Shown piece by piece: positions 454 through 55,858 of a stretch of DNA of 64,000 nt (its first letter is position 1; each line of letters starts with the position of its first letter). The notes beneath the pieces were generated by a model that was not told where the DNA came from, ran no database searches, and worked only from the letters and a program-made list of their open reading frames with translations. Location of the stretch: assembly GCA_020051775.1 (NCBI GenBank), contig JAGVQJ010000069.1, positions 15,235 through 79,234 on the forward strand, given 5' to 3'. Source of the DNA: Calditrichota bacterium (lineage in GTDB: Bacteria > Electryoneota > B3-LCP). The position numbers and the translations under genes are program-made.

Positions 454-652
454 GCGGGCATAAACCTGTTTAAGCTCCGGTACGGCTTGAAGGCCGTTAA
501 CGATTAGCGGTTCGATGATAATCTCCGGTGATTTCGCATAATAACAAAAATTTACCCCCGGATAGGGGCAAAATCAAGTAATTTCGACGTGAATTAGAGT
601 GCATGGTGCCAATGGCACTTTTATCGGCGAATTGCTTCGCGAATTCGCCGGT

Positions 653-2440
653 TCACGCCGATAACTGCATCTCCTGCCCTTCGTACTGGAGTTGATACAA
701 GCGGTGATACAACCCCTGCTTGCGCAACAGTTCCTGGTGGGTGCCCATTTCACGCACCTCGCCCTCGTGCATGACCACAATCAGGTCGGCGCGCTGGATG
801 GTGGATAGCCGGTGTGCAATCACGATGGCCGTGCGGCCTTCCAGCAGGGCGGCAATAGCCTTCTGGATCAACTGCTCGGTTTCGGTGTCCACCGCAGAGG
901 TTGCTTCGTCCAAGATCAGAATGGGCGGATCGTGCACCAAAGCTCGGGCGAAGGCCAAAAGCTGCCGTTCGCCGGTGGACAGTGTTGCGCCTCTTTCTTC
1001 AAGTTTTTCGTCAAATTTGTCGGGCAGTTTTTCGATGAAGCGGGTAGCCGCTACGGCCTGAGCTGCCTGCTTCACCTTTTCGGACGGGATATCGCTACCC
1101 AAGCGGATATTCTCCTCCACGCTTCGCGCGAAGATGAAGACGTCCTGCTGCACGACTCCCAGCATGGATCTTAAAGCGTGCTGAGTGAAGTTGCGCACGT
1201 CCACATCATTGATGAGGATTTGCCCTTCCTGCAGATCATAAAAACGCGTTAGTAAACTGACCAGCGTGGTTTTGCCCGCCCCAGTGTGTCCCACGATAGC
1301 TACTGTTTTTCCGGCCTCTACTTTGAAACTGACGTTGCGTAGCACCCAGTCGCGCCCTTGATAAGCAAAGTTGACATTGCGGAATTCGATACTGGAGGGT
1401 TTTGCGTCCAGGTGGAGTGGTTTGGCCGGATCTTTAATTTCTTCTTCCTCATCCAGCAGTTTGAACAACCGCTCGGAGGAGGCCATGGCGCTTTGCAGGA
1501 TATTGTATTTTTCGGCCAAATCGCGGACCGGCATGTAGAAACGTTCAGCGTATTGAATGAAGGCGATCAACACGCCCAGAGTTAGTGCGCTCTTCAGGAT
1601 CATCGCACCACCCGACCAAAGGATCAATGCAATGGCCACGGCCGAGAGCAGCTCCACCACCGGGAAAAAGACGGCGAAGTAGAATACGGTTTTGACGTGC
1701 GAATCCCGCAGATCGGCGTTCAACTGCTGGTAGTGCTCCAAGTTGACTCTCTCCCGACGGAAAAGCTGCACGATGCGCATGCCGACGATGTTTTCCTGCA
1801 AGTAAGAGTTAACCCTGGCCAGCCGCTTGCGCATTTCGCGGAAACTATCCCGCACCTTGATTTTAAAAATAAAAGCCACCCAGAATAGCGCCGGTATCAC
1901 ACAGAATGTAATCAACGCCAGTTTCCAGTTCAAGAACAGCATGGCGGCGATGATGCCCAACAGAGCGAAAATATCCCCAAAAATGGCCACTACTCCCTGC
2001 GTGAACATATTGTTGATCACTTCCACATCCGACGAAATGCGGGTCATGATGCGGCCAACGGGGTTGCGGTCGAAATAAGCAATGGGCAGGCGAGCCAGCT
2101 TGTCGAACAGTTCGCTGCGCATGTCGAACATGATCTTCTGGCCCACCCAGTTGGTCAGGTAGATCTGCAGGAAACGGCAGACAAACAGGCCGATCAAAAC
2201 CAGCGAATACCAGACCAGGATGTGCAGCAGGCCGGTCATGTCTTTCTGCGGGATGAACACGTCTACGGCGTTCTTAGTCAGTAGTGGACCGATTAATTCC
2301 AAACCGGAGACGACCAGCAGCAGGAACACTCCCCCCAGCAACAGAAACCGGTAGGGTTTGCCGTAGCGCAACAATCGCTTCATCAATCGGGCGTCGTACG
2401 CTTTGCCCGTTATTTCATCATCATCGAAGGGATTTGACAT
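653..2440 (-). CDS. ABC transporter, fused permease/ATP-binding protein (MsbA-type exporter)
   Basis: 595 aa. N-terminal half hydrophobic (about 6 TM helices). Walker A GHTGAGKTT, ABC signature LSTGERQLLAFARAL, Walker B ILILDEATSAVD, H-loop IAHRLSTI. Confidence 0.9.
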   Translation of the reverse strand: MSNPFDDDEITGKAYDARLMKRLLRYGKPYRFLLLGGVFLLLVVSGLELIGPLLTKNAVDVFIPQKDMTGLLHILVWYSLVLIGLFVCRFLQIYLTNWVGQKIMFDMRSELFDKLARLPIAYFDRNPVGRIMTRISSDVEVINNMFTQGVVAIFGDIFALLGIIAAMLFLNWKLALITFCVIPALFWVAFIFKIKVRDSFREMRKRLARVNSYLQENIVGMRIVQLFRRERVNLEHYQQLNADLRDSHVKTVFYFAVFFPVVELLSAVAIALILWSGGAMILKSALTLGVLIAFIQYAERFYMPVRDLAEKYNILQSAMASSERLFKLLDEEEEIKDPAKPLHLDAKPSSIEFRNVNFAYQGRDWVLRNVSFKVEAGKTVAIVGHTGAGKTTLVSLLTRFYDLQEGQILINDVDVRNFTQHALRSMLGVVQQDVFIFARSVEENIRLGSDIPSEKVKQAAQAVAATRFIEKLPDKFDEKLEERGATLSTGERQLLAFARALVHDPPILILDEATSAVDTETEQLIQKAIAALLEGRTAIVIAHRLSTIQRADLIVVMHEGEVREMGTHQELLRKQGLYHRLYQLQYEGQEMQLSA

Positions 2441-2571
2441 GGTTTTATCCCCCCTTTATCAAGGGGGGTGGGGATCTTTCCGTAGTTATACGAGCGTTTA
2501 GAGCTATATGTGCTACGTAAAACGGGCCGCTCCCAAGCGTCGAGCGACCCGCTATTTCACAACGAATCAAT

Positions 2572-2988
2572 CTATGTGCTGCCTGATACCAGGCTTTCCG
2601 GCTGCACCATGATTTTGACTCCCGTTTTGGCGCCGGCGTCGGAAAGGCGTTGCCTGAGCACGTTCAAATCGCTGGTTGCTCCTGCTGTATCAACCAAAGC
2701 CAGCATAACCTGAAATCCACCCATGATCCTTTCCACCCGATCTGCTATTCGGCAACCGGTGTCCTGCAAGCCTTGCGACAGTGCTTCGGCATTCGCGCGG
2801 TTATCCGGCGACAGACAGATTATCAAGAGCCGTTCCGGGCGCGATCCCGGTTTTGGCGCGTCGGTCTCCATCTGTGCCACCACCCGGCTGACGATCTGGT
2901 GCAACCGCTCGTAGGTGGCGGCTTCACCCAGCTCTTCCTGGGCGGTTTTCGCGATGGCGCGAATCTGATCTTCGGTGAGTTTGGTCAT
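2572..2988 (-). CDS. Hypothetical protein (138 aa), co-transcribed downstream of the BMC-T shell gene
   Basis: Complete ORF overlapping the stop of the BMC-T gene by 4 nt. No motif I can assign; it is not a recognisable BMC, EutN or GTPase fold by eye. Confidence 0.5.
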   Translation of the reverse strand: MTKLTEDQIRAIAKTAQEELGEAATYERLHQIVSRVVAQMETDAPKPGSRPERLLIICLSPDNRANAEALSQGLQDTGCRIADRVERIMGGFQVMLALVDTAGATSDLNVLRQRLSDAGAKTGVKIMVQPESLVSGST

Positions 2989-3554
2989 GATAGTATATTA
3001 AATATCTCTTCTCTCGGCTGCGGAATCACCACTTTGCGCACCAGCAGCCCCTGATCCAACGCGGCCTGAGCGCCCGCATCCACAGCGTTGCGTACGGCAG
3101 CCACGTCGCCGGTCAGTGTGACGAAGGCTTTGCCTCCGATGCCAATTCCCATCCGGATTTCCATCAAGGCAATCTGCGCCGTCTTGCAGGCGCGGTCGGC
3201 AGCGAGCACGGCAGAAGCCGCCGAAAACGTCTCGATGACGCCGATGGCGTTGACCGTCGGATTCCAGGAGGAGGCGATCAGGGCGGGGTAGACCTGCGGG
3301 TGGACGTTGGGGATGACGAAGTCGTCCACGCAGGCGATGGCGCCCACGCTTTTGCCCTCTTCCACGGAAGCGCGCACGGCGGCGGTGTCGCCGCGCACCA
3401 GAGCGATGTACTTGCCCGAGCAGATGGTCTTGGCGATAACCAGTTCCACCTGCGAGATCTTCAGCATGGCGTCCGCCGCTTCAATCCCCACGGCGATGGA
3501 GTTGAACTCGACCATGCCTAACGCGGACGAATGAGTAGTAGTGTTATTTGGCAT
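2985..3554 (-). CDS. Tandem BMC-domain (BMC-T) shell protein, PduT-like
   Basis: 189 aa with two BMC domains: ALGMVEFNSIAVGIEAADAMLKISQVELV...RGDTAAVRASVEEG and AIGVIETFSAASAVLAADRACKTAQIALMEIRMGIGIGGKAFVTLTGDVAAVRNAVDAG. Length and the GIGGK/GDV-AV motifs match my recollection of Salmonella PduT. The PduT cluster-binding Cys in GIGGKC is Ala here (GIGGKAF). Confidence 0.75.
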   Translation of the reverse strand: MPNNTTTHSSALGMVEFNSIAVGIEAADAMLKISQVELVIAKTICSGKYIALVRGDTAAVRASVEEGKSVGAIACVDDFVIPNVHPQVYPALIASSWNPTVNAIGVIETFSAASAVLAADRACKTAQIALMEIRMGIGIGGKAFVTLTGDVAAVRNAVDAGAQAALDQGLLVRKVVIPQPREEIFNILS

Positions 3555-3606: not shown

Positions 3607-4026
3607 TTATGAGTTATGAAAATTCGATGATTCCTTTTGTAATTTTTCCAGCCGTTTAATTCTATCTCTAAAATTAATGAGCATGGCGATAACCACACTC
3701 TGCAGAATTATTATCAGGAATACAAGTCGCTCCGTTTTAAGCATCTCAAATATTGAATAAATAGGTGGCCCGATAACTAGTAACAGAATAGCTATTCCGA
3801 TTATTGCTAAAATCAATAAAAATAATTTCTGGATCAGCCATTCCCATGCTTTAACTATTATTCCCGTCTTCGCTCCATTATCATAAAATGGCATTTTGGT
3901 AGGATCTAATAAAAAATCCTTGTCTTTAAAGAGTTTCTTATGAAGGGATGCCATGGATTCCTCCTGGACCGTCATTGCGTACTGAGTAATTTCTGCAGGG
4001 TCAGCGATATGCAACTCAACAGTCAA
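3607..4026 (-). CDS. Hypothetical small membrane protein (2 predicted TM helices), low-GC cassette gene 2
   Basis: 139 aa. Hydrophobic stretches LFLLILAIIGIAILLLVIGPPIY and LVFLIIILQSVVIAMLI. Markedly AT-rich compared with flanking genes. Confidence 0.5.
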   Translation of the reverse strand: MTVELHIADPAEITQYAMTVQEESMASLHKKLFKDKDFLLDPTKMPFYDNGAKTGIIVKAWEWLIQKLFLLILAIIGIAILLLVIGPPIYSIFEMLKTERLVFLIIILQSVVIAMLINFRDRIKRLEKLQKESSNFHNS

Positions 4027-4088
4027 TTTTGTCCTATTTAGGATTACGCTTTGCCAGGCAAACCTAACTGATTTATCACCTACAGCAT

Positions 4089-4799
4089 TTATTGAATTGG
4101 ATCTTTAAATACCTTGTAAATATTTTTGATAATCCAAAATACTTGAAGTGCCTCATTCGCTATATTTTCAAAATACCTTGTTTCAACACAATATCCAAGC
4201 ATATGTTTCTGCTTTTTTTCATCAAACATCCACCATTGTCCAGTCCATGCAGAAGAAGGATGAATAAAAATAGAACCATCCCTAAATATGCTCGAATATT
4301 TCTCACTCATATTGTACTTATATTCTTGTTGAGAATATTGAGTAAGAAGGCGGCAGAGTGTGCAAAGATTTAAATCTTTATTATTGTACTTGAATGTTTT
4401 ATACCAAGGATGAGAGCTAATTCTTCCCTCAGACTTTGAATGCATGAAGAATCTTTCTGATCGCACTTCCCTTTTATCTTGTTCGGACAGGATAAAAAGT
4501 AACGAAGCTAGATTGTCGAATATTACTCTAAGATGTATGTAAGCCGAGGACAGATTTACTAACTTTAAGCTCACATGAAACATAATGCTATGATTATAAT
4601 GCCATAAAAGATGACTCAGCAATGCACCAGAAAAATAGTTACTCGGCTCCAATCCATTTTGAAAATGCTCCTGGATATGATTTAATATTTCTTGGTGTTC
4701 ATCAATTTCACTCTCAAGTTTTCCAATAAGCTGGTTGAATCTTTCGTTGTCCGTAAATAAATAAGGCACTCTAGTTTTTATATCATTCCAATAATCCAT
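4089..4799 (-). CDS. Hypothetical cytoplasmic protein (236 aa), low-GC cassette gene 1
   Basis: Complete ORF, AT-rich, no signal peptide. Only a weak R-x6-H stretch (RSERFFMH) reminiscent of HEPN motifs; no family assigned. Confidence 0.45.
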   Translation of the reverse strand: MDYWNDIKTRVPYLFTDNERFNQLIGKLESEIDEHQEILNHIQEHFQNGLEPSNYFSGALLSHLLWHYNHSIMFHVSLKLVNLSSAYIHLRVIFDNLASLLFILSEQDKREVRSERFFMHSKSEGRISSHPWYKTFKYNNKDLNLCTLCRLLTQYSQQEYKYNMSEKYSSIFRDGSIFIHPSSAWTGQWWMFDEKKQKHMLGYCVETRYFENIANEALQVFWIIKNIYKVFKDPIQ

Positions 4800-4878
4800 T
4801 ACTTTTCTCCATTTTCGGTGATGATGGTCTGTGTACCCCTGGCTTGCTCACATACCGGGCATATCCTATCCCATTTTT

Positions 4879-4985
4879 GTCCGGGAATGAATTCCCGGAC
4901 TACCTTCCTTCGATCCACTAAAGCGGATGTTTTACGTTCACTTAAGTGGACTGAAGCTTTTTAGCCCGGAAATTCATTTCCGGGG
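4879..4985. repeat. Pair of mutually inverted 18-bp hairpins (ccgggaatgaattcccgg / ccggaaattcatttccgg) flanking ~65 bp, plus a central near-palindrome gttcacttaagtggac
   Basis: Read directly. The second hairpin is the reverse complement of the first with a compensatory G-C to A-T change at the same stem position. Confidence 0.5.
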
Positions 4986-5027
4986 GACGGCTCTAACATA
5001 TTCCGCGACCGCGGATGCACTTCAACT

Positions 5028-5243
5028 TCACGTGTCGCACTCGATGCCCGCCTCCTTCGATTGCAGCGGCGGGCAGGGGTGATCGGCATACGAACAGAAC
5101 ACGCAGCAGTCGCCGGGTTTGGGGGTCAGGACGGCGCCGCAACCCTCGCAGGTGTAGGTGTGCAGGCAGTAATTAACCGGCATCTCCATCTCGACTTGAT
5201 GGCTGCAAACCGGGCAGGTCAAAGTAGCACGAGTGTATATCAT
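5028..5243 (-). CDS. GDCCVxC-domain zinc-ribbon protein
   Basis: 71 aa. CPVC...CEGCG...GDCCVFC cysteine pattern. Start overlaps the stop of the upstream formyltransferase gene (translational coupling). Confidence 0.6.
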   Translation of the reverse strand: MIYTRATLTCPVCSHQVEMEMPVNYCLHTYTCEGCGAVLTPKPGDCCVFCSYADHPCPPLQSKEAGIECDT

Positions 5244-6433
5244 TAGCTTTCAGGCGTTTTTAGTATTTTTTGGTCAATGAATTTTATTAAACCCGGGTGC
5301 ATGAAATAATAGGTCAATCCCTTCGTCTGATCGTTGGGAATTTTATGTTCGGGTTGTTGCGAGACTCTTTGGATCGCTTCAACAACGCGCTCGCTCAGGC
5401 GGCTTCGCACGGCCCGTTTTACCGAACGACAGGACCTGTGGATCTTCACGGCTTTATCGTAAGTGTAGATTCCAACAATGCTGCCAGTGTCCACTGACTC
5501 CTGGATGAAGTGTAGTGTCGCGCAGACCGGAAACCCGAACAGCAGCGAATATTCGATCGTAGACCGACCCCGCACAAACGGCAGCACACCCCAGTGGTCG
5601 TTCAGCAGCCCGGTATGAAAGGAGCTGATGATATTGTTCTTAATGATAAAACCCAGCTTGTGGAAGCCCAGGTCCAGATTTCGGGCTTTCAGAATGTCTG
5701 TGACCTTGGGATCTTTGTAGTGCAAGTTCAGGGTTTGGAAGGGCAGACGAACGCCCTTGATCCACAGCGCACTACGGAAGATTAATCTACTACGCAGAAT
5801 CCATCGTTTGATCTTCTGGCTATGGTGCGGGAGAAAGAAGACTTCAACTTCGTACCCGTCCCGCTTCAAGGCTGTATAAATGTCGTTAAAAAACGTTGGC
5901 GTGCCGATCAAGCCGATGCGAGGCTTGCGTGTCTGGACTTGTCTCGAATCGGGTTCTACTCTCATCGAAACCTGTTGGACGAATTGCCGCACTTCCTCCC
6001 GGCGTGCCAAGGGAAAACTGTGAAAGCCATCATGGTCCAGGCAAGAATGAAAATGCTGCACACCGAGATGCAGATAGTCATCCAGATCCGTATTTTTCTT
6101 ATAAAACCACAGCAGTTCGTTGAAATAGCGCACGTCGCTGGACAGAAGGTAACCCAGCAGGAGGAATTTCACCACATGGACTCTGGCAACCGGAATTAAA
6201 GGCGCTTTTCTTTTGAAATGAATCTGGTGAAGCAGCAGATCGAAGAATCTGAAATCACGCGGAAAGATTTTCTTCACTGAATCCCAGTGATCGAAACCTG
6301 AGCCGATCAAATCCTCCCACTGCGGAGCGGGAACCAACGATCCTGAAGTCCCTGGTGACAACAATTGCTGCTTGAATTCTGCCAGGTCGCCTCGCCGAAG
6401 CCGGGGATCGTCGAGATCAAGCGACATCGCCAT
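5243..6433 (-). CDS. Two-domain protein: unknown N-terminal domain (~170 aa) + C-terminal formyltransferase domain
   Basis: 396 aa. C-terminal half has Formyl_trans_N-like motifs (RIGLIGTPTFF..., HTGLLNDHWGVLPFVRGRSTIEYSLLFGFPVCATLHFIQESVDTGSIVG), comparable to Fmt, PurN or ArnA N-domains. Confidence 0.6.
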   Translation of the reverse strand: MAMSLDLDDPRLRRGDLAEFKQQLLSPGTSGSLVPAPQWEDLIGSGFDHWDSVKKIFPRDFRFFDLLLHQIHFKRKAPLIPVARVHVVKFLLLGYLLSSDVRYFNELLWFYKKNTDLDDYLHLGVQHFHSCLDHDGFHSFPLARREEVRQFVQQVSMRVEPDSRQVQTRKPRIGLIGTPTFFNDIYTALKRDGYEVEVFFLPHHSQKIKRWILRSRLIFRSALWIKGVRLPFQTLNLHYKDPKVTDILKARNLDLGFHKLGFIIKNNIISSFHTGLLNDHWGVLPFVRGRSTIEYSLLFGFPVCATLHFIQESVDTGSIVGIYTYDKAVKIHRSCRSVKRAVRSRLSERVVEAIQRVSQQPEHKIPNDQTKGLTYYFMHPGLIKFIDQKILKTPES

Positions 6434-7535
6434 ACCGAACGTATTGGGGATTCTCCGTCACCTCTTGCCAGAAAGAAGTCAAATCAGTGAATTCGATCTC
6501 CTCCGCATATTTATCCATGAGGTAGCGTATAAATCTTTCGACGTCAAGGTAGCTCTTTGCGTACAGCTTCGTGTGACTCTCGATAATGATGGGTATGCGC
6601 TCGGCGGGGTGCTTCCGCAACCGTTGGATGACAGCGTCGAAGGAAGATTTCAAATAACAGAAAGGCTGACCGCCGATCTTCAAGTGCGTCATATAAGGCC
6701 TTGAAGATAAATGAAGCCTTACTTTTCCCTCTAAAGGGCTTGGCCCCTCACGGGCTTCAGTTTCGGAGCAATCGTATTGATCGCGTCCCGATTGAGACTG
6801 CCCTAATTTCGCTTTCACCGCGTTAGCGGCCAACCGGGACAGAGTCCACGGATCAGGGGAGTAGTAAGCCAGAGGAATGATTACCAGGGAATTTCTTGCC
6901 CGAGACACTCGAGTGACGTCCCGCTGGTCGGGATGATACGGCAATGTATCCTCCTCCAGCGTCGTATAATCAATCTGAGCATTGGGAATTACCAGTCCTT
7001 TACGCACGCCCAAGATGATTTGAATATTGAATCGCGTGAGGTGACCCTGCAGTACTTCAAACGGTTGCAGCGCCCAGGTTCCAGCCTTGAATGCATGGAT
7101 TTTAAAGGCGGGATCAAGGTCTTGCAACAAATCCTGCAAGTATTCTACAGAATCCTTCAGGAGCTTTTCCTGAAACAGTGAATCATAAGAGGCCAGGTTC
7201 CAGTTGAGACCGACCTTGAGTCGGCCCTCCTTCAACGTGGCTTCACACCACTGGGGATGCAAATGCAACTGGACGTCGAATCCACTCTCCTTCATCAGTC
7301 TGACGGTAGCATCCCACAACTGACGTTGCAGCCGAATGCGGGGATCGGCGTCCTGAAATCGAATGAAAGCCAACTGCTGGGCTACTTCGACCATGAAGGT
7401 TAGCTTGAGGTTCAGCTTGCGAGCCAGGTTCATTAAAAAGAGCGACGGCAAATACTGATGTGAAGCCACGTTCCCAGAGCCGTTCCCCATCAGCTCCCAG
7501 TCGTCCTCGATCAGAACACAAAATTTCTTTTTCAT
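6417..7535 (-). CDS. Hypothetical protein, possibly polysaccharide-deacetylase/carbohydrate-esterase-like
   Basis: 372 aa, overlaps the formyltransferase gene by 17 nt. Assignment is a weak impression only (HLHPQWCE, HAFKAGTWAL stretches). Confidence 0.35.
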   Translation of the reverse strand: MKKKFCVLIEDDWELMGNGSGNVASHQYLPSLFLMNLARKLNLKLTFMVEVAQQLAFIRFQDADPRIRLQRQLWDATVRLMKESGFDVQLHLHPQWCEATLKEGRLKVGLNWNLASYDSLFQEKLLKDSVEYLQDLLQDLDPAFKIHAFKAGTWALQPFEVLQGHLTRFNIQIILGVRKGLVIPNAQIDYTTLEEDTLPYHPDQRDVTRVSRARNSLVIIPLAYYSPDPWTLSRLAANAVKAKLGQSQSGRDQYDCSETEAREGPSPLEGKVRLHLSSRPYMTHLKIGGQPFCYLKSSFDAVIQRLRKHPAERIPIIIESHTKLYAKSYLDVERFIRYLMDKYAEEIEFTDLTSFWQEVTENPQYVRYGDVA

Positions 7536-26437: not shown

Positions 26438-27892
26438 TTGCGTAGAGAAACGCTAAAGACCTGGTTCTCGCACTGCCTGCTTTTGATCGCCCTACCCCTA
26501 TGCGTCTGGGGCGAGACGCACGTTAAAGGTTTCGTTTCCGGAACTTGGGATATTCTGGGAACCCCTTACATCGTGGATAGCTCCCTGGTCATCGAAGAAA
26601 ACGACACTTTATTTATCGAGCCAGGTGTAACTATCCTCTTCCAGGGGCCTTTTTTCATTAAAATCAATGGCTGTCTCCGAGCTCAAGGAACGGTCTCTGA
26701 TTCCATCAGAATTTGGGATGAAAATAAAGCCAACTGGACCGGACTCCATTTTATGCCCTCCTCGCACGACTGCATTATAAATTATGTGTCTATTAAGTAC
26801 CCGGTTTGGGGTATTTATGCCTATTATTGTAGTGAAACGTCACCTTTAAATATATTACACTCAAATATTTACGCACAATCGGTTGCTGTCTGGGGTGCAT
26901 TCTCCAAGTTTAATCTTTTAAATTCCACAGTGATATGCGATTCTTTGGATGCTAAAGCTATCTATTTAAATCATTCCGATGCTCATATACAGGAATGCTA
27001 TATCCAGGCCAGCCGGTATCAAGACCAGGGAGTGGCTATGGGTATCTATAAGGTTAATTCAAAGCCGGAAATTTGGCAAAATACCATACGGGTTGACGCC
27101 TCGCAGAGAGCCCACGGAATTTGGTCGCAGACCAGCCCTAAAGCAGATATATCCTTCAACTTGATTCACATCACCTCATCCTATTATGCCAATGGAGGTT
27201 TCTTCCTAGCCAGCAGCCCCGATTTCGTGAACAATACGGTCATTATGGAATCCGAATTTGCCTTTTGCGACGGGCTGCACCTTTTGCAAAATGCCAGTCC
27301 TATCGTAGATAACAATATATTTGCCGGCGATGGTCCGAATTCTTTTGGTATCTATGTGGCGGAAGGCTGTGAACCGGATATTTTATATAGTGATTTTTTC
27401 AACCTGACGCCAACCTCCGCCGGTTACAGTTTGGGAACCGGTTGCATTGATGAAGACCCCATTTTTGAAGGACCCGAACAGGGTAATTTTACCTTGGAAC
27501 GACATTCGCCTTGCATTAATGCCGGCAATCCCGCCCGCGTTGAGGATCCTGACTCCACGGTCTCAGATATGGGCTGTTTTTACTTCAATACACAGGTCGG
27601 CGTAGAACCCGAGCCGTTCGTCCCACCGGCCTCATTCACCTTGATTCAAGCCTTTCCAAATCCTTTCAACGCTCAAAGTGTCATTCGCTTGACGCTCCCC
27701 ACCACCCAGACCGGATCGCTGGTTATTTATGACCAACAAGGTCGCATCGTTGAAACCATCAAGACAGGGATCTTCTTCACCGGGGAAAGTCGCTTTAGTT
27801 GGGACGCTTCTAGATTCGGCTCTGGTATCTACTGGGCAACATTGAGAACCGATCGTGGAACTCAAGTTCTCCAACTTACACTCATCAAATAA
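26438..27892 (+). CDS. Secreted protein with T9SS C-terminal sorting domain
   Basis: 484 aa. N-terminal signal peptide. C-terminal ~80 aa FPNPFNAQSVIRLTL...IYDQQGRIV...GIYWATLRTD matches the T9SS CTD (Por secretion tail). Confidence 0.65.
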   Translation: MRRETLKTWFSHCLLLIALPLCVWGETHVKGFVSGTWDILGTPYIVDSSLVIEENDTLFIEPGVTILFQGPFFIKINGCLRAQGTVSDSIRIWDENKANWTGLHFMPSSHDCIINYVSIKYPVWGIYAYYCSETSPLNILHSNIYAQSVAVWGAFSKFNLLNSTVICDSLDAKAIYLNHSDAHIQECYIQASRYQDQGVAMGIYKVNSKPEIWQNTIRVDASQRAHGIWSQTSPKADISFNLIHITSSYYANGGFFLASSPDFVNNTVIMESEFAFCDGLHLLQNASPIVDNNIFAGDGPNSFGIYVAEGCEPDILYSDFFNLTPTSAGYSLGTGCIDEDPIFEGPEQGNFTLERHSPCINAGNPARVEDPDSTVSDMGCFYFNTQVGVEPEPFVPPASFTLIQAFPNPFNAQSVIRLTLPTTQTGSLVIYDQQGRIVETIKTGIFFTGESRFSWDASRFGSGIYWATLRTDRGTQVLQLTLIK

Positions 27893-33670: not shown

Positions 33671-35680
33671 ATGAAATGCACCATGATCTTGCTTACTGTT
33701 GCGGCGCTCGCAATACTTTCCTTACCGCAATTCTCAATCCAGGCCGGCAGCATTCATCCCGCACTGATGGGTCCCAATCGGTTTATCCTGGAAGGCGATT
33801 CGGTGGACGTATGGGTATTGTTTCGTGACCGGGGGTTTGAAAGCTCCCAGGCTCTGGAAGATGCCCTTCTCAGAGCGGAGCGCAGCCTGTCACTCCGTGC
33901 CGCTGATCGCCGAGCGAAAATGCGCAGGGGATCATTGGTTACTGAAAGCGATTTGCCTGTAAATGCTGAATTTGTGCGACAAATTCTCGACGTGGGTGGA
34001 CGCTTTCGCACTGTCAGCCGTACGATCAATGGTCTATCGGTGAGACTACCGCGAATACTCCTGGAAAAGGTAGCCAAATTCCCCTTTGTCGCCAAGATCC
34101 AACCGGTGGCCAAAGGCTGGCGATATGAACCGCAGACTGAATGGATCGAGGGGATGGGGGAGACCCCCAACCAAATGGATGAGACTGATCGGCTCAACTA
34201 TGGCAATTCCCTAAACCAGTTGAATCAGATCAACGTGGTGGCAGCGCATGACGCCGGATGGACCGGCCTGGGGGTTCTCGTCGGCATGCTCGACACCGGC
34301 TTTTACCGCCCGCACCAGGCGCTGGTCAATCAACCGGTCATTGCCCAATATGATTTCATCCAAGGGGACACCACGGTCATAAATCAGACTGGCGATGACC
34401 CGAATCAGCACAATCATGGCACCTATACCTGGTCAACCCTGGGAGGAGCCTATTCCGGCAGTTTATACGGTCCTGCCTATCAATCCCAATTTATTTTAGG
34501 AAAGACAGAAAGCGTTGCATTTGAACAACCGGTCGAAGAGGATTGGTATGTGGCTGGTATGGAATGGGAAGATAGCTTGGGAGTCGCCGTGATCTCCACC
34601 TCGTTGGGTTATCTGGACTGGTATCAATTCTCCAACATGAACGGTTTAACGGCGGTAACGACCATCTGCGTGAATCAGACGGTGGCCAATGGCGTGGTCT
34701 GCGTAACGGCCAACGGCAACGAGAACGGCTCATCCTGGGATCACATTATCGCCCCATCCGATGCCTTTGCAGTCATTGCCTGCGGAGCTGTCAACAGTAC
34801 CGGCACGATCGCCAGCTTCAGCTCGCATGGCCCCACCTACGACGGACGCATCAAGCCGGAGGTCTGCGCCCGCGGCGTCAGCACCTGGTGCGCAACACCC
34901 ACCTCCATCAGCAGCTATAGCGGAGTAAGCGGCACCTCGCTGTCTACACCGTTGGTTGGGGGAGCTTGCGCCCTGGTAGTGCAGGCGCATCCTACCTGGA
35001 CGCCCATTCAAATCCGTGCCGCCCTCATGAATACGGCCGATAATCACACCTCCCCCGATAATATTTACGGTTGGGGTGTCATTGATGTCATGGCGGCCAT
35101 CGCCTACAACTTCCCGCCCAACATTCTGGTACAGAATCCTCAAGCCGGCCCCCTCGTTGTCCCCACGGATAGCATCGTCAACTTCAGCGTGATTGTGATG
35201 GATTCCCTGGGCGGCAGCCTGACTTATCACTGGTGGATTGATGAGAACGAATTGGTAGCCGGTCCGGATTCAACGTTCCGGTATCGGTGGCAACAGGCGG
35301 ATACCAGTGTAGTCAAATGCGTAGTGATCAACGAAGAAGGCGGCAGCGATAGCACCGACTGGGACGTTCAGGTTTATATGCCTCTGGGGGTAGTCAATCC
35401 TGAATTGGCCGCGCCGCAGGAGTTTGCGCTGCACAACCCACATCCAAACCCCTTCAATCCTTCCACCACCCTCAGATATCAGGTATCAGCTTTCAGCCAT
35501 GTCAACTTAAAGGTCTACGATACTGCCGGGCGGTTGGTCAGTACCCTGGTGGATAACTGGCAGCCGGCAGGAACTCACCAGGTTAATTTCGATGCTTCCA
35601 GTCTAGCAGCCGGCGTCTATCTGGCGCGGATGACAGCGGGGGACTTCACAGCGACGCAGAAATTGGTGCTGGTGAAATAG
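33671..35680 (+). CDS. Subtilisin-like serine peptidase (S8) with T9SS C-terminal domain
   Basis: 669 aa. Signal peptide. Asp (VGMLDTG), His (NHGTY) and Ser (GTSLSTPLVGG) catalytic motifs. C-terminal FPNPFNPSTTLRYQV...KLVLVK sorting domain. Confidence 0.85.
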   Translation: MKCTMILLTVAALAILSLPQFSIQAGSIHPALMGPNRFILEGDSVDVWVLFRDRGFESSQALEDALLRAERSLSLRAADRRAKMRRGSLVTESDLPVNAEFVRQILDVGGRFRTVSRTINGLSVRLPRILLEKVAKFPFVAKIQPVAKGWRYEPQTEWIEGMGETPNQMDETDRLNYGNSLNQLNQINVVAAHDAGWTGLGVLVGMLDTGFYRPHQALVNQPVIAQYDFIQGDTTVINQTGDDPNQHNHGTYTWSTLGGAYSGSLYGPAYQSQFILGKTESVAFEQPVEEDWYVAGMEWEDSLGVAVISTSLGYLDWYQFSNMNGLTAVTTICVNQTVANGVVCVTANGNENGSSWDHIIAPSDAFAVIACGAVNSTGTIASFSSHGPTYDGRIKPEVCARGVSTWCATPTSISSYSGVSGTSLSTPLVGGACALVVQAHPTWTPIQIRAALMNTADNHTSPDNIYGWGVIDVMAAIAYNFPPNILVQNPQAGPLVVPTDSIVNFSVIVMDSLGGSLTYHWWIDENELVAGPDSTFRYRWQQADTSVVKCVVINEEGGSDSTDWDVQVYMPLGVVNPELAAPQEFALHNPHPNPFNPSTTLRYQVSAFSHVNLKVYDTAGRLVSTLVDNWQPAGTHQVNFDASSLAAGVYLARMTAGDFTATQKLVLVK

Positions 35681-35906: not shown

Positions 35907-38546
35907 ATGCGAAAAATCCCACCTTTAATTCTATCCTTGGTCCTGATTACCATCCCTGTCCATGCAGATACCCATATTCCCGCTGGACCGGTGTCAGGTT
36001 TTTGGGCTGCTTCCGGTTCACCCTACCTGATTGAAGGAACCATTACTGTGCTGGCCGGTGATTCGCTGACGATAGCTCCGGCATGTACGATTCTTTTTCA
36101 AGGGAACTACAAATTGATCGTGCAGGGCTGGCTCCTGGCGGTCGGTACTCAAGGTGATTCCATAATCTTTACCTCGAACAGTGCGAGCGCAAGCTGGCAT
36201 GGGCTCCGGTTCGAGAACTCCGCCGACAGCAGCCGACTCTCTTATTGTGTTATTCGCTATGGGGAAGCTTCCGGCGCGCACCCGGAATGCCGGGGGGGCG
36301 GCATATATTGCGATCATTCTCATCCCGTGATAGCCCATTGCAGTATCCGGCAAAACACGGCGGTGGATGGTGGAGGCCTATCCTGCTATAACTATTCCAA
36401 TCCCGTGATATCCCAATGTGCCATAACCGGCAACCAGGCCGGGATGGGAGGAGGCGTTCGACTAAAAGTCAACTCCAGTCCCTCTATCACCAATTGCCAA
36501 ATTCAAGGCAATGTGGCAGAATTCAATGGTGGAGGCATCAATTGCACTCAAAACTGCAATTCGATTATTCGATCCTGCGTTATCACCGGAAATCAGATCA
36601 CAGGAAGCCCGAGGAAGGGCGGCGGCATCTACTGTGATGCTTCGAGTCCCGTCGTAACCAATTGCACTATTACCAATAATTCTGCCTATAACGGCGGAGG
36701 AATCTTTCTTTATAATTCGACGGCGGTCATTGATAGCAACACGGTCACCGATAACATCGGAGCGGGATTGTACTACAAAGCAGCCGGCCCAGTCATTAGC
36801 CATGATCTGATTGCCGATAATTCGGTGGAAGGGATATTCGCAGATTCGTTAGGTTCCGGGATCATAACTGAATGCACGATTCAACATAACGCATGCGGCA
36901 TCCATTTAAACCATTCCAGCCCGGGAATTGTAAATTCCATTGTGACAGAGAATTTTAGTTTCATAGGCGCCGGGATATTATGCGAAAACGATTCCGATCC
37001 GCTAATCAGCCGCTGCCTTATTTCCAACAATGAAGCTTGGTACTCTGGCGGTGGCATCGCCATCGAAGGTTACTGCGATCCTCTGATTCAGTATTGTATA
37101 ATTTATAATAATAGCGCTGATGGAGTTTGGGGTGATATGGGCGGCGGTGGAATTTATTGCGGCTGGGAACAGGCGCCACAACCCACCATTAATAACTGTG
37201 TCCTCTATGGGAATACCACAGCTTGTAACGGTGGAGGCATCGGATATGACAACTTCTCGATTCCGCATGTTAGCGATTGCCTCTTTCAGAATAATTCTGC
37301 TGGAGGATATGGTGGTGGAATGAGTTGTATCCCTTCAACTTACGCTCAAATCAATCGCTGCCGATTCGTAGGAAATTCAGCGGCAAACGGCGGAGGAATT
37401 CGCATAAATTGCAGTCCGGTGTGTTTCTTGACAACATGCTCATTTGTTGATAACCAGGCGAATTCAGGTGGCGGTATGTACATTTTTGGGTATGAATCAA
37501 GTAACAGTCGTACAGTTGACAAATGTACCTTTTATGCAAATCGGGCGGCTGTCGGCAGTGGTATATATTGTTACTATAGTTGCGCAACTTTGTGGTTAAC
37601 TAACAGCATCCTCTGGGGTAATAGTCCTGTAAGCAACCAGTTGGTCTACAGTAGCGGAGGCGTCAGTTACAGTGATGTCCAGGGCGGATGGACAGGGGTG
37701 GGAAATATTAACGAAGACCCCGAATTTATAAGCGCCGCGAATTATGATACTCGTTTGTTGTCTAATTCGCCCTGCATTGATTCTGGAAATGCCAGCGTAA
37801 TCTACAACGATCCTGACGGAACTCGCGCTGATATGGGCGCTTTCTATTACGATCAGTCCCTGCCGCTGCGAGTATCCTTAAGGCCGCACGAGATCCCATC
37901 CTTGATTCCGACGGAAGGGGGGCGCTTGGATTACACCATATACCTGAGTAATCGAGAAAATGTCTCGCATCTGGCCCGAGTTTGGTGTGACCTCACTCTG
38001 CCTGATGGAACTATTTTCGGCCCGGTGCAGGACCCGCTGATAGTTACAGTCGGTCCTGGCCTGAATCTCAGTCGCAAGCGCAATCAGGCAATACCCGCCA
38101 CGGCTGCAATGGGGGTCTATCTTTTCAATGTATACGCCGTAGTTGGATCAGATACCTCAAAGGATAGCTTCATATTCGGGAAGTTGGGATCGGGGGCTCA
38201 GGGTTTGGGATGCGGCGGTTGGGCGATCACGGGTGATGATTTTGTCGGAGGGACAAACGCTACCGTGTCAACGTCGGGGTCGAGGATGCCCTCGACTATG
38301 ATGATTTTCCCCAACCCCTTCAATCCATCCACAGCTATCAGCTACCAGTTAACAGCTTTCAGCCACGTCAACTTAAAGGTCTACGATACGGCCGGGCGGT
38401 TGGTCACGACGCTGGTGGATAAGCAGGGGGAGGCGGGAGCGCACGAAGTAACATTTGATGGATCAGCGTTGGCTTCCGGGATTTATCTCGCGCGTCTAAC
38501 GGCAGGGGATTTCACCGCAACACAGAAATTGGTGTTGGTGAAGTAG
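35907..38546 (+). CDS. Secreted right-handed parallel beta-helix repeat protein with T9SS C-terminal domain
   Basis: 879 aa. Signal peptide. Many NxxGGGI(y/f) and CxITxN repeats. C-terminal ~80 aa nearly identical to the S8 peptidase CTD. Confidence 0.75.
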   Translation: MRKIPPLILSLVLITIPVHADTHIPAGPVSGFWAASGSPYLIEGTITVLAGDSLTIAPACTILFQGNYKLIVQGWLLAVGTQGDSIIFTSNSASASWHGLRFENSADSSRLSYCVIRYGEASGAHPECRGGGIYCDHSHPVIAHCSIRQNTAVDGGGLSCYNYSNPVISQCAITGNQAGMGGGVRLKVNSSPSITNCQIQGNVAEFNGGGINCTQNCNSIIRSCVITGNQITGSPRKGGGIYCDASSPVVTNCTITNNSAYNGGGIFLYNSTAVIDSNTVTDNIGAGLYYKAAGPVISHDLIADNSVEGIFADSLGSGIITECTIQHNACGIHLNHSSPGIVNSIVTENFSFIGAGILCENDSDPLISRCLISNNEAWYSGGGIAIEGYCDPLIQYCIIYNNSADGVWGDMGGGGIYCGWEQAPQPTINNCVLYGNTTACNGGGIGYDNFSIPHVSDCLFQNNSAGGYGGGMSCIPSTYAQINRCRFVGNSAANGGGIRINCSPVCFLTTCSFVDNQANSGGGMYIFGYESSNSRTVDKCTFYANRAAVGSGIYCYYSCATLWLTNSILWGNSPVSNQLVYSSGGVSYSDVQGGWTGVGNINEDPEFISAANYDTRLLSNSPCIDSGNASVIYNDPDGTRADMGAFYYDQSLPLRVSLRPHEIPSLIPTEGGRLDYTIYLSNRENVSHLARVWCDLTLPDGTIFGPVQDPLIVTVGPGLNLSRKRNQAIPATAAMGVYLFNVYAVVGSDTSKDSFIFGKLGSGAQGLGCGGWAITGDDFVGGTNATVSTSGSRMPSTMMIFPNPFNPSTAISYQLTAFSHVNLKVYDTAGRLVTTLVDKQGEAGAHEVTFDGSALASGIYLARLTAGDFTATQKLVLVK

Positions 38547-41586: not shown

Positions 41587-41695
41587 AGGTTATCTCCACT
41601 TATGTCATTGCGAGGAAGCCCTTCAGGGCTAACGAAGCAATCTCCTTCGGACCAGATTGCTTCACCGGCTAAAGTCGGGTTCGCAAAGACTTGTT

Positions 41696-43938: not shown

Positions 43939-44008
43939 TACAATCCTCCGTACAGGTCACGGATTCAGAGGGACATCCACGGTAGTGTCCTTGCGTATCC
44001 AATAGTTA

Positions 44009-45889: not shown

Positions 45890-45894
45890 GACTT

Positions 45895-46281: not shown

Positions 46282-46396
46282 GATAGATCCTCTTGCTGTT
46301 CGTGCCGGGGTCGGTAATGACCCCGACTACAAAATCAGTGGATGACGTGATTTAATTCCGTAGTCAAGGTTGTCCCTGACCTTGACATGCTGCACT

Positions 46397-46915: not shown

Positions 46916-46918
46916 CAG

Positions 46919-48520: not shown

Positions 48521-48556
48521 AGTAGACTCATCCCATTCGTATAATCCAAGTGTAAC

Positions 48557-49849: not shown

Positions 49850-49855
49850 GCTTGT

Positions 49856-50654: not shown

Positions 50655-50661
50655 GGAAATT

Positions 50662-55802: not shown

Positions 55803-55858
55803 GTCGAATTGAATTTAATGCACCGGTGGGCCGAATATTTTTTTTAGGAGGTACCGGT

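What the first reader, a model, noticed from the sequence alone, without database searches (positions are those of the whole stretch)
2572..3554. Orphan PduT-like tandem-BMC shell protein with no other microcompartment genes nearby
The 189-aa protein has two clear BMC domains and PduT-like length. There is no hexameric BMC-H, pentameric EutN/CcmL-type, signature aldehyde dehydrogenase or encapsulation-peptide gene anywhere in the 64 kb. It is co-transcribed with an unassigned 138-aa protein and sits upstream of an ABC exporter. The Cys that ligates the [4Fe-4S] cluster in PduT is Ala here. This is either a satellite shell gene of a distant BMC locus or a BMC-T used outside a canonical microcompartment.
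Basis: partly seen in the sequence, partly recalled or inferred. Interest (0 to 1): 0.55.

Follow-up and report, generated by a model that had tools for sequence, protein, structure and literature searches.

The report
Satellite microcompartment shell gene pair
This is a real PduT-type microcompartment shell gene, translationally coupled to a small ACT-domain protein; the same pair sits inside a complete microcompartment locus in another bacterium, so here it is most likely a scattered piece of a "fragmented" microcompartment gene set, which is a known pattern, not a free-standing oddity.

Summary
The 189-aa ORF (2985-3554, minus strand) is a genuine tandem-BMC (BMC-T, PduT-type) shell protein. 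No other shell or core microcompartment gene lies in the 64 kb. The PduT pore cysteine is present (Cys45, KTICSGKY) and is invariant in the 120 closest homologues.

The 138-aa partner overlaps the BMC-T stop by 4 nt. It is not a BMC protein. It has two conserved amphipathic N-terminal helices, a variable linker, and a degenerate ACT domain of the UPF0237 type ("N-ACT").

The BMC-T/N-ACT/ABC block is conserved in about ten lineages related to candidate division LCP-89. PduL usually lies just upstream. In one metagenomic contig (L100) the order is AldDH, BMC-H, PduL, BMC-P, PduS, BMC-T, N-ACT, DUF711. Other N-ACT genes overlap a BMC-P gene.

Sutter et al. 2021 already catalogue fragmented "FRAG" BMCs. 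These include an LCP-89 genome (FRAG3) and an ACT-domain protein with a unique N-terminus (FRAG4).

Best reading: a satellite shell module of a fragmented metabolosome. N-ACT probably docks to the shell through encapsulation-peptide-like helices. I could not scan the rest of this genome for BMC-H and BMC-P. This is a new member of a known kind, of modest interest.

The parts
2985..3554 (-). BMC-T(s) shell protein of the PduT type, 189 aa. It has two non-permuted PF00936 domains, the pore cysteine Cys45 (KTICSGKY) and both edge lysines (K32 in DAMLK, K124 in DRACK).
   Evidence: Pfam, E 8e-45. PDB 3nwg, 3pac and 3n79 alignments over residues 8-185. Cys45, Gly47, Lys48, His85, Asp120 and Lys124 are invariant in 120 homologues. 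It is 84-89% identical to the nearest relatives, whereas the neighbouring genes are 38-77% identical.
2572..2988 (-). N-ACT, 138 aa. It has amphipathic helices 6-20 and 26-41, a variable linker 42-52, and a beta-alpha-beta-beta-alpha-beta ACT domain 53-130. The start overlaps the BMC-T stop (ATGA).
   Evidence: NCBIfam PRK00194, E 1e-7, below cut-off. AlphaFold2: ACT part pLDDT 84-92, N-terminal helices 55-64. Foldseek 1zpv, TM 0.83. Family alignments A1 and A3. Hydrophobic moments 0.51 and 0.57; mean pairwise identity is 0.65 for the N-terminus, 0.16 for the linker and 0.56 for the ACT part.
2441..2571 (-). Structured intergenic spacer. A 12-bp GC-rich hairpin followed by UUUU lies directly after the N-ACT stop (terminator- or attenuator-like). 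An 8-bp C6/G6 hairpin lies 11 nt before the ABC start.
   Evidence: RNA fold: -52.7 kcal/mol against -35.9 +/- 3.8 for shuffles, z = -4.4. Sequence read.
653..2440 (-). Homodimer-type ABC exporter (transmembrane domain plus nucleotide-binding domain, MsbA-like, below all equivalog cut-offs). It is a conserved syntenic neighbour. A functional link to the shell module is not shown.
   Evidence: PF00664 and PF00005. NCBIfam hits are all below cut-off. It sits downstream of BMC-T/N-ACT in all ten related lineages whose contig reaches that far (L013 ends just after N-ACT), with a spacing that ranges from a 4-nt overlap to 866 nt (in L099, around a 224-aa gene on the opposite strand).
551..572 (-). 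Terminator-like hairpin with a T-run after the ABC gene.
   Evidence: Consensus scan. The count of such sites in the region is not above the shuffle expectation, so this is weak evidence.

Best explanation
The two overlapping genes form a conserved shell-associated module. It belongs to a fragmented (FRAG-type) metabolosome gene set in an uncultivated FCB-superphylum bacterium related to candidate division LCP-89.

The 189-aa protein would form a PduT-like pseudohexameric trimer. Its three Cys45 residues would hold a [4Fe-4S] cluster at the central pore. The trimer would be one tile in a shell whose BMC-H and BMC-P tiles are encoded elsewhere in the genome.

The 138-aa partner is made in step with it through translational coupling. 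It consists of encapsulation-peptide-like amphipathic helices on a flexible linker, followed by an ACT fold. I infer that the helices dock it to the shell, most simply to the BMC-T it is co-expressed with. There it would serve as a small-molecule-sensing or adaptor subunit. In relatives, the same protein is followed by DUF711/UPF0210, a protein of unknown function with a PFL/RNR-like barrel, which it may recruit or regulate.

In this clade the ACT domain has lost the G-x-x-P-G ligand loop and the QHEDVF..MHR tail. DUF711 is not adjacent. PduS, the usual partner of a pore-Cys BMC-T, is not next to it either.

The ABC exporter is most likely only a syntenic neighbour.

Shown: the domain identities, the conserved Cys, the gene coupling, the conservation across lineages, and the occurrence of the pair inside a full BMC locus elsewhere.

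Inferred: Fe-S binding, shell incorporation, helix-mediated docking, and the existence of BMC-H and BMC-P in this genome.
For: (1) It is a tandem BMC protein colinear with PduT and 3nwg, with an invariant pore Cys and invariant edge lysines.

(2) Purifying selection is strong. BMC-T is 84-89% identical to its closest relatives, against 75-77% for the ABC gene and 38-50% for N-ACT.

(3) BMC-T and N-ACT are adjacent and co-directional in all 11 related lineages (window, L001/L002/L003, L008-L014, L099). The gap is at most 5 nt in six of them and 37-127 nt in L001, L009 and L099. PduL lies just upstream in L008, L010, L011, L012, L014 and L099.

(4) L100 carries AldDH, BMC-H, PduL, BMC-P, PduS, BMC-T, N-ACT and DUF711 on one strand. 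Its BMC-T is 51% identical to the window protein. Its N-ACT matches at E 8e-14.

(5) N-ACT genes overlap a BMC-P gene in L017-L020 and sit beside a BMC-T in L087. A shell gene lies nearby in 5/26 loci whose ACT protein has the N-terminal extension, against 0/54 loci with plain UPF0237 (Fisher p = 0.003).

(6) The architecture is encapsulation-peptide-like: conserved amphipathic helices, a poorly conserved linker, then the domain.

(7) Sutter et al. 2021 (PMC8217296, Supplementary Data 2) describe FRAG loci scattered over up to six genomic sites. [quoted passage not shown] FRAG4 has a PduT-type BMC-T satellite and an ACT-domain protein with a unique N-terminus.

(8) Named N-ACT relatives come from Ignavibacteriales, the main FRAG1 phylum.
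Against: No BMC-H, BMC-P, AldDH, PduL or PduS is present in 64 kb. The rest of the source genome could not be reached.

In the catalogue, a pore cysteine goes together with an adjacent PduS. Here, and in all LCP-89-like loci, PduS is absent within 10 kb.

FRAG3 as published lists no BMC-T.

Many N-ACT/DUF711 pairs (L022-L036) have no shell gene within up to 10 kb.

An HMM of the N-terminal helices gives only non-significant hits to genuine encapsulation peptides (E 0.4 and 4). Sutter et al. report that their encapsulation-peptide HMMs found nothing in FRAG genomes.

The N-terminal helices have low model confidence (pLDDT 55-64).
Confidence: 0.62

Rival explanations
1. The shell protein is used outside a compartment. 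The BMC-T trimer (Fe-S tile) plus N-ACT would work on their own, for example as a soluble or membrane-apposed redox or sensor complex. It might be functionally tied to the downstream ABC exporter. The genome would have no BMC-H or BMC-P genes.
For: No other shell gene lies in 64 kb or within +/-10 kb in any LCP-89-like locus. The BMC-T/N-ACT/ABC order is kept in about ten lineages while the upstream genes change. In L001 the N-ACT stop overlaps the ABC start. PduS is absent.
Against: Downstream synteny beyond the ABC gene is also conserved (CSD, Se/S carrier, metH-related genes), so adjacency may be simple lineage synteny. The N-ACT to ABC spacing varies from -4 to 866 nt. In L099 the spacer holds a gene on the opposite strand. 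In the window it holds a terminator-like hairpin. [quoted passage not shown] The homologous pair lies within a full BMC locus in L100. The edge lysines used for tiling are invariant.
Confidence: 0.15
2. The shell assignment stays as in the best explanation, but the N-terminal helices of N-ACT are not an encapsulation or docking signal. They would form a small helical hairpin domain for binding DUF711 or another partner, or for oligomerisation. N-ACT would be a cytosolic ligand-sensing regulator that merely shares an operon with shell genes.
For: Across the family, L20, G21 and A24 between the two helices are almost invariant, which suggests a folded hairpin. In 14 of 24 loci N-ACT is followed by DUF711 with no shell gene nearby. 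ACT domains are typical regulatory ligand binders, as Sutter's supplement also states. There is no significant similarity to known encapsulation peptides.
Against: Plain UPF0237 proteins pair with UPF0210 without any N-terminal extension (short matches; SP0238/SP0239 = 1zpv/2ha9). The extension is therefore not needed for that pairing. Extension-bearing genes are the ones found next to BMC-P or BMC-T (p = 0.003). In the window clade DUF711 is absent, yet the N-terminus is the best-conserved part of the protein.
Confidence: 0.2
3. It is a decaying remnant of a lost BMC locus with no present function.
For: The pair is isolated from other BMC genes. A lineage-specific low-GC insertion lies immediately upstream (3607-7535). 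The ACT domain has lost its canonical motifs.
Against: Both reading frames are intact. BMC-T is the most conserved gene of the block (84-89% identity), and all key residues are invariant. The pair is retained in at least 11 lineages.
Confidence: 0.03

Closest known systems
PduT (Salmonella and Citrobacter Pdu microcompartment; PDB 3n79, 3pac) and the Desulfitobacterium hafniense BMC-T (3nwg)
   Same: It is a tandem, non-permuted BMC protein of about 185 aa. It is colinear with these proteins over residues 8-185. The pore motif K-T-I-C-[PS]-G-K carries the cluster-ligating Cys, and the edge lysines are conserved.
   Different: It scores 130 bits against the 250-bit equivalog cut-off of TIGR02526. 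No PduS and no Pdu or Eut genes are nearby. Residue 46 is Ser rather than Pro. Fe-S binding is not shown.
FRAG-type (fragmented) BMCs of Sutter et al. 2021, especially FRAG3 (Calditrichaeota, one LCP-89 genome) and FRAG4 (Marinimicrobia)
   Same: The shell gene is remote from BMC-H and BMC-P genes and from known enzymes. The host is an FCB or candidate-phylum bacterium. FRAG4 has a PduT-type BMC-T satellite and an ACT-domain protein (about 90-aa C-terminal ACT) with a BMC-specific N-terminus.
   Different: The FRAG3 description lists no BMC-T. FRAG4 was reported only in Marinimicrobia. The BMC-P triplet that defines FRAG types could not be looked for here. The published note says the N-terminal domain has no homologues, whereas a family of roughly 35 clusters was found here.
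Isolated PduS-PduT satellite pairs (FRAG1, FRAG6, FRAG7 and HO types; here L004, L101, L102)
   Same: These are the nearest outgroup BMC-Ts (55-59% identity). They also carry the pore Cys and also lie far from other shell genes.
   Different: They are preceded by PduS (RnfC_N + Complex1_51K + Fer4). The window clade has no PduS, and N-ACT follows the BMC-T instead.
UPF0237 ACT protein and UPF0210/DUF711 pair (S. pneumoniae SP0238/SP0239; PDB 1zpv, 2ha9)
   Same: The ACT domain is the best structural match (TM 0.83). More distant N-ACT relatives keep the UPF0237 motifs and are followed by DUF711.
   Different: The window protein adds a 50-residue N-terminal helical extension. It lacks the G-x-x-P-G loop and the QHEDVF..MHR tail. 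It scores 32 bits against a 74-bit cut-off. It has no DUF711 neighbour.
BMC encapsulation peptides (for example the N-termini of PduP, PduD and PduL)
   Same: They are amphipathic helices of about 15 residues at a terminus, joined to the domain by a poorly conserved linker. The hydrophobic moment here is at least as high as for the peptides of L006 PduL, L100 PduL and L100 AldDH.
   Different: There are two helices with a conserved L-G-x-x-A turn between them. There is no significant sequence match to known encapsulation peptides. Targeting was not tested.

Membership tests
BMC-T(s), PduT type | Two tandem, non-permuted PF00936 domains in one chain of about 180-190 aa | tested here: met
   Pfam finds two stretches, E 8e-45. 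The protein aligns colinearly with 3nwg, 3pac and 3n79 over residues 8-185.
BMC-T(s), PduT type | Pore cysteine (Cys38 of PduT) that ligates the [4Fe-4S] cluster | tested here: met
   Cys45 aligns with Cys38 of 3pac and with the C38S position of 3n79. It is invariant in 120/120 homologues.
BMC-T(s), PduT type | Actual binding of an Fe-S cluster, and trimer (pseudohexamer) formation | not testable with these tools
   Only monomer prediction is available. This needs expression with UV-vis or EPR, or a multimer model.
BMC-T(s), PduT type | Co-occurrence with an adjacent PduS homologue (the rule noted in the catalogue for pore-Cys BMC-Ts) | tested here: not met
   No PduS lies in the window. The only Complex1_51K protein (44009-45889) has a NuoF-type domain set (NADH_4Fe-4S, no RnfC_N) and lies in a hydrogenase cluster. 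None lies within 10 kb in L001 or L008-L014.
BMC-T(s), PduT type | NCBIfam equivalog TIGR02526 (eut_PduT) curated cut-off | tested here: not met
   130 bits against a cut-off of 250. It is a homologue, not an equivalog of Eut/Pdu PduT.
Satellite locus of a fragmented (FRAG) BMC | Shell gene(s) located away from any locus that holds BMC-H plus BMC-P | tested here: met
   No PF03319 gene and no second PF00936 gene lies in 64 kb.
Satellite locus of a fragmented (FRAG) BMC | BMC-H and BMC-P (typically a BMC-P triplet) encoded elsewhere in the same genome | not testable with these tools
The only support is indirect: an LCP-89 genome is listed under FRAG3.
FRAG4-type BMC-associated ACT protein | C-terminal ACT domain of about 90 aa plus an N-terminal region specific to BMC contexts | tested here: met
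   ACT fold at residues 53-130. The N-terminal motif is shared with proteins whose genes overlap BMC-P (L017-L020) or follow PduS-PduT (L100). Identity with the published FRAG4 protein itself was not checked, because no sequence was available.
FRAG4-type BMC-associated ACT protein | Restricted to Candidatus Marinimicrobia (as published) | tested here: not met
   The closest relatives are LCP-89 and unclassified FCB MAGs. Other family members are Ignavibacteriales.
UPF0237 ACT family (PRK00194) | Curated score cut-off and conserved motifs (G-x-x-P-G loop, QHEDVF..MHR tail) | tested here: not met
   32 bits against a cut-off of 74. Both motifs are absent in the window clade but present in distant relatives.
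UPF0237 ACT family (PRK00194) | Adjacent UPF0210/DUF711 gene | tested here: not met
   No DUF711 lies in the window or in L001-L016.
Encapsulation peptide | Terminal amphipathic helix joined to the cargo domain by a poorly conserved linker | tested here: met
   Helices 6-20 and 26-41 have hydrophobic moments of 0.51 and 0.57. The linker has a mean pairwise identity of 0.16, against 0.65 for the N-terminus.
Encapsulation peptide | Sufficient to bind the shell or target cargo to the lumen | not testable with these tools
   This needs an experiment or multimer modelling.
   There is no Pfam hit at E <= 0.1. The best fold matches are ACT proteins. PduA and EutM appear only at E of about 2e-3 with TMq about 0.39.

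The most novel reading that the evidence does not exclude
The N-terminally extended ACT protein, together with DUF711/UPF0210 where that is present, is the long-sought cargo or signature module of the enigmatic 'shell-only' FRAG microcompartments of FCB bacteria. DUF711 is a protein of unknown function with the ten-stranded barrel of glycyl-radical enzymes and ribonucleotide reductases. In the LCP-89-like clade, a pore-Cys, Fe-S-bearing BMC-T has exchanged its usual redox partner PduS for a degenerate ACT subunit that docks on the tile. This would give a ligand- or redox-gated shell pore.
Probability: 0.25. Interest if true: 0.65.

Novelty: new member of a known kind. Interest (0 to 1): 0.36.

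Why it matters
Fragmented BMC loci are catalogued but functionally blank. The catalogue states that no enzymes or encapsulation peptides could be found for several of them.

This work ties the window's gene pair to a small, recurrent family: an ACT protein with a conserved amphipathic N-terminus. That family turns up next to BMC-T, next to BMC-P, and inside a full AldDH/PduL/PduS/PduT locus followed by DUF711. This gives a concrete, testable candidate for what these compartments bind or enclose.

It also identifies a clade in which a cysteine-bearing PduT-type tile occurs without PduS.

For the finding as it was posed, an orphan shell gene, the answer is ordinary. It is a satellite of a scattered gene set, and the claimed loss of the Fe-S cysteine is an error.

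Tried and rejected
- **Source contig.** I tried to retrieve it by exact-protein look-up with both proteins. Nothing was on record, so the remaining 18 kb of the 82-kb contig and the rest of the genome were not seen.
- **138-aa ORF as a permuted BMC domain.** Rejected.
- **Metagenome scan with the full, diverse N-ACT alignment (A3).** I redid it with a narrower alignment (A4), which also pulled in many plain UPF0237 genes. These served as a control.
- **HMM of the N-terminal helices against all ORFs of all fetched loci.** Only N-ACT proteins were significant. Hits on genuine encapsulation peptides (L015 AldDH, L006 PduL) were at E 0.4-4 and do not count as evidence.
- **Pfam on the about 58-aa C-terminal extension of LCP-89 PduL.** No family.
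- **PADLOC on the five island genes 3607-7535.** No hits.
- **Literature.** No paper in the library links DUF711, UPF0210 or UPF0237, or 'ACT domain' plus FRAG, to microcompartments. Youssef et al. 2019 (LCP-89 genomics; its title says 'microcompartment production') is not held and was used only through its title.
- **Decaying remnant.** Rejected because BMC-T is conserved more strongly than its neighbours.
- **Functional link to the ABC exporter.** Considered and ranked low, because of the variable spacing, the intervening gene in L099, the terminator-like hairpin, and the conserved synteny further downstream.
Not possible, because only monomer prediction is offered. The 58%-identical crystal structure 3nwg makes a monomer model redundant.
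Full report
**What is there**

On the minus strand there are three consecutive genes:
- a 189-aa ORF at 2985-3554;
- a 138-aa ORF at 2572-2988, whose ATG overlaps the previous stop (ATGA);
- a 595-aa ORF at 653-2440, after a 131-nt spacer.

The 189-aa protein has two PF00936 BMC domains (E 8e-45). It aligns colinearly with the solved BMC-T trimers: 3nwg (Desulfitobacterium, E 5e-59), 3pac (Citrobacter PduT) and 3n79 (Salmonella PduT C38S). It scores below the equivalog cut-off for Eut/Pdu PduT, 130 bits against 250. It is therefore a PduT-type homologue, not a Pdu or Eut orthologue.

The 595-aa protein is a generic MsbA-like ABC exporter, with a transmembrane domain and a nucleotide-binding domain. 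It is below every curated cut-off.

The absence of other microcompartment genes in the 64 kb holds. I ran tblastn with real BMC-H, BMC-P, AldDH, PduL, PduS, EutQ, EutJ and DUF711 proteins taken from fetched BMC loci. It found only the 189-aa gene, plus a remote NuoF-type match at 44.5-45.4 kb. A Pfam scan of 55 of the 56 non-overlapping ORFs of at least 70 aa found housekeeping genes, a hydrogenase cluster, a riboflavin operon and type IX secretion substrates. It found no shell, aldehyde dehydrogenase, phosphotransacylase, aldolase or DUF711 gene.

The statement that the Fe-S-ligating cysteine is replaced by alanine is wrong. Cys45 (KTICSGKY) aligns with Cys38 of PduT (KTICPGKF). The C-[SP]-G-K motif is invariant in the 120 nearest homologues, as are His85, Asp120 and the edge lysine Lys124.

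**The 138-aa partner**

Pfam finds nothing in it. NCBIfam gives a sub-threshold ACT hit (PRK00194/UPF0237, E 1e-7, residues 68-132).

An AlphaFold2 model built from eight family sequences shows three parts:
- two helices, 6-20 and 26-41, with pLDDT 55-64;
- a disordered linker, 42-52;
- a confident beta-alpha-beta-beta-alpha-beta domain, 53-130, with pLDDT 84-92.

The best structural match of that domain is the S. pneumoniae ACT protein 1zpv (TM 0.83, rmsd 2.0 Å). It is not a permuted BMC domain.

Within the clade the N-terminal 41 residues are the best-conserved part. Mean pairwise identity is 0.65 there, 0.16 in the linker and 0.56 in the ACT domain. Both helices are amphipathic, with hydrophobic moments of 0.51 and 0.57. 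Three bona fide encapsulation peptides taken from fetched BMC loci give 0.40-0.44. I call this protein N-ACT.

**Relatives of the locus**

The closest BMC-T homologues (70-89% identity) come from MAGs labelled candidate division LCP-89 or unclassified bacteria. In every one of these lineages BMC-T is followed directly by N-ACT. Wherever the contig reaches that far, the ABC exporter comes next.

In the LCP-89 branch (L008, L010, L011, L012, L014) a PduL phosphotransacylase lies just upstream of BMC-T.

In L099 (BMC-T 89% identical) the order is aconitase, PduL, a HicB-like gene plus AIPR insertion, BMC-T, N-ACT, a reverse-strand gene, then ABC.

In the organism of L001/L002, PduL has stayed with serS and aconitase, about 130 kb from BMC-T on the same contig.

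The window has none of PduL, aconitase, serS or alaS. Instead, a block at 3607-7535, low in GC over roughly 4-6 kb and with no counterpart in any relative, lies upstream of BMC-T.

Identity to the nearest relatives differs sharply between the three genes: BMC-T 84-89%, ABC 75-77%, N-ACT 38-50%. The shell gene is therefore under the tightest constraint and is not a relic.

**More distant BMC-T homologues**

At 55-60% identity, the homologues are PduS-PduT pairs:
- inside a glycyl-radical BMC locus (L006, Firmicutes);
- as isolated pairs far from other shell genes (L004 Terriglobia, L101 Calditrichaeota, L102);
- next to a BMC-P triplet (L015, L016 Bacteroidota).

The window clade differs in having no PduS beside a cysteine-bearing BMC-T.

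**The N-ACT family**

A profile search over 1.84 billion representative proteins found only 88 hits. About 35 clusters share both the N-terminal helices and the ACT domain. The N-terminal motif is E..IR.I.......LG..A(T/S)...V...V..V.

Most of these relatives keep the UPF0237 hallmarks: a G-x-N-x-P-G loop after strand 1 and a QHEDVF..MHR tail. The window clade has lost both.

A metagenome scan returned 80 loci. In 14 of the 24 loci first scored as carrying the N-terminal extension, the ACT gene is followed by DUF711/UPF0210 (PF05167). In four loci (L017-L020) a BMC-P gene overlaps the start of the ACT gene, giving BMC-P, N-ACT, DUF711. In L087 a BMC-T lies beside it. None of 54 loci with a plain UPF0237 gene has a shell gene, against 5 of the 26 extension-bearing loci (L077 and L085 were added after the HMM search) (Fisher p = 0.003). 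Named members are from Ignavibacteriales.

The most informative locus came from a shared contig length between an N-ACT hit and a PduL hit. L100 encodes, on one strand:
- AldDH, with a C-terminal encapsulation-like helix;
- BMC-H;
- PduL, with an N-terminal encapsulation peptide;
- BMC-P;
- PduS;
- BMC-T, with the pore Cys, 51% identical to the window protein;
- N-ACT, 195 aa, E 8e-14 to the window protein;
- DUF711.

The BMC-T/N-ACT adjacency therefore exists inside a complete metabolosome locus.

DUF711 is the UPF0210 protein solved as 2ha9. It is classed with pyruvate formate-lyase and ribonucleotide reductases in the ten-stranded barrel superfamily (PMC4390871). Its function is unknown.

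**Comparison with the literature**

Sutter et al. 2021 (PMC8217296) define satellite loci and FRAG BMCs. In FRAG BMCs the shell genes are scattered over up to six sites, mostly far from enzymes. They occur in Ignavibacteriae and related phyla and in many candidate phyla.

Their Supplementary Data 2 states the following:
- FRAG3 is mainly in Calditrichaeota, with one LCP-89 genome. [quoted passage not shown]
- FRAG4 is in Marinimicrobia. Its only BMC-typical non-shell protein has a C-terminal ACT domain of about 90 aa and an N-terminal domain with no known homologues.
- Encapsulation-peptide HMMs found nothing in FRAG genomes.
- BMC-T(s) proteins with the pore cysteine sit next to PduS, and those without it do not.

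Their BMC-T(s) tree lists a 183-aa PduT-type satellite for FRAG4, in a clade with Caldithrix, Ignavibacteriae and Planctomycetes members.

The title of Youssef et al. 2019 (not held in the library) says that LCP-89 genomes encode microcompartment production.

An isolated PduT-type gene in this part of the tree is thus a known pattern, and an ACT-domain companion has been noted once. The new points are:
- the pairing in the LCP-89-like clade;
- the link of the ACT protein to the UPF0237/UPF0210 pair;
- its presence in a complete locus;
- the absence of PduS beside a pore-Cys tile.

**Mechanism**

Shown: domain identities, the invariant pore cysteine and edge lysines, the translational coupling of the two genes, conservation of the pair, and its occurrence in full and partial BMC loci.

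Inferred from established knowledge of PduT: a pseudohexameric trimer with a [4Fe-4S] cluster on the three-fold axis, serving electron or cluster passage across the shell.

Inferred from the anatomy:
- The BMC-T is a minor tile of a shell whose BMC-H and BMC-P are encoded elsewhere.
- N-ACT uses its conserved amphipathic helices on a flexible linker to attach to the shell, most simply to the tile it is co-translated with.
- The ACT domain acts as a ligand-sensing or adaptor unit. In this clade it is degenerate, and DUF711 is not adjacent.

**The ABC exporter**

It is probably only a neighbour, for four reasons:
- Its spacing from N-ACT ranges from a 4-nt overlap to 866 nt.
- In L099 a reverse-strand gene intervenes.
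- Synteny continues beyond it.
- In the window the spacer folds into a 12-bp GC hairpin followed by UUUU, directly after the N-ACT stop (z = -4.4).

**Limits**

The source contig and genome could not be retrieved. The presence of BMC-H and BMC-P in this organism therefore rests on a related genome in the literature. Use of the tile outside a shell cannot be excluded; I put it at about 0.15. The docking role of the N-terminal helices is a hypothesis. They have low model confidence, and they have no significant similarity to known encapsulation peptides.

**Verdict**

This is a real and well-conserved PduT-type shell gene with an ACT-domain companion. It is best read as a satellite module of a fragmented metabolosome. 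The useful side lead is the N-ACT/DUF711 family as a candidate FRAG-BMC component. Interest 0.36.

Noticed in passing
L100:1-10264 (Logan SRR15070234 contig): A compact metabolosome locus reads AldDH, BMC-H, PduL, BMC-P, PduS, BMC-T, N-ACT (195 aa), DUF711/UPF0210. DUF711 has a PFL/RNR-type barrel and unknown function. It sits where a signature enzyme would be expected, and no other candidate signature enzyme is on the contig.
   Followed up: partly
L008:9166-9948, L010, L012, L100:2316-3212, L006:10589-11215, P0145: PduL of the LCP-89 clade lacks an N-terminal encapsulation peptide. It carries a C-terminal extension of about 50 aa (…LYSEFDVRKA…ILTPSALDLGREKGL…). By eye, the same short motif occurs at the C-terminus of L100 PduL, the N-terminus of EutQ in a GRM locus, and the N-terminus of the 195-aa N-ACT. 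Pfam has no model for it.
   Followed up: partly
window 3607-7535 (minus strand): A block of five genes (GC 0.44 in the 4001-6000 bin) lies between BMC-T and lgt and has no counterpart in any related locus. The genes are a 139-aa putative membrane protein, a 236-aa protein with a weak DUF5677 hit, a 71-aa Cys-rich protein (…GDCCVFCSY…), a 396-aa formyltransferase-like protein and a 372-aa protein with no family. PADLOC gives no hits. In L099 the same position (between PduL and BMC-T) holds a HicB-like gene and an AIPR abortive-infection gene, so this may be an insertion hot spot.
   Followed up: partly
L097:8076-10774 and L099:1069-3957: In the window's relatives, PduL follows an aconitase-family gene (642 aa). 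In L097/L098 the two overlap by 4 nt. This is an unusual partner for a phosphotransacylase.
   Followed up: no
window 57523-57716 (+): An FMN riboswitch (RF00050, 103 bits) lies upstream of the riboflavin operon ribD, ribE, ribBA, ribH (57792-61315). The 84-aa ORF at 57541-57795 lies over the riboswitch and is probably not a gene.
   Followed up: yes
window 38667-53142 (minus strand): A large redox cluster holds: the HycI protease; NiFe hydrogenase large and small subunits; an MvhD-like protein; a 2Fe-2S/4Fe-4S protein; NuoF-like and NuoE-like subunits; a [FeFe]-hydrogenase-like protein with HATPase-domain partners (sensory type?); and HdrB/C-like CCG and Fer4 proteins. The NuoF-like gene is the only weak 'PduS-like' match in the window. 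It is not a PduS.
   Followed up: partly
window 26438-27892, 33671-35680, 35907-38546, 55826-57427, 61319-63706: Several secreted beta-helix and subtilase proteins carry type IX secretion C-terminal sorting domains, and there is a PorZ-like protein. This fits an FCB-superphylum host.
   Followed up: no
window 2572-2988, residue Cys79 (TGCRI): A cysteine at the start of strand 2 of the ACT domain is invariant in the window clade and is the consensus residue across the whole N-ACT family (…C.I.D…). Its role is unknown. It is notable in a protein paired with a putative Fe-S tile.
   Followed up: no
L004/L005:1-20552 (Terriglobia): An isolated PduS-PduT pair is embedded among genes for a xanthine-dehydrogenase-like protein, amidohydrolases, ornithine or aspartate carbamoyltransferase, carbamate kinase and PPK2. 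No other shell gene lies within 10 kb.
   Followed up: no
window 2985-3554: Gene-start ambiguity. One public annotation of the same contig calls a 176-aa product starting at Met14. Relatives conserve the longer N-terminus (MP…; L099, L010), so the 189-aa start is favoured.
   Followed up: partly
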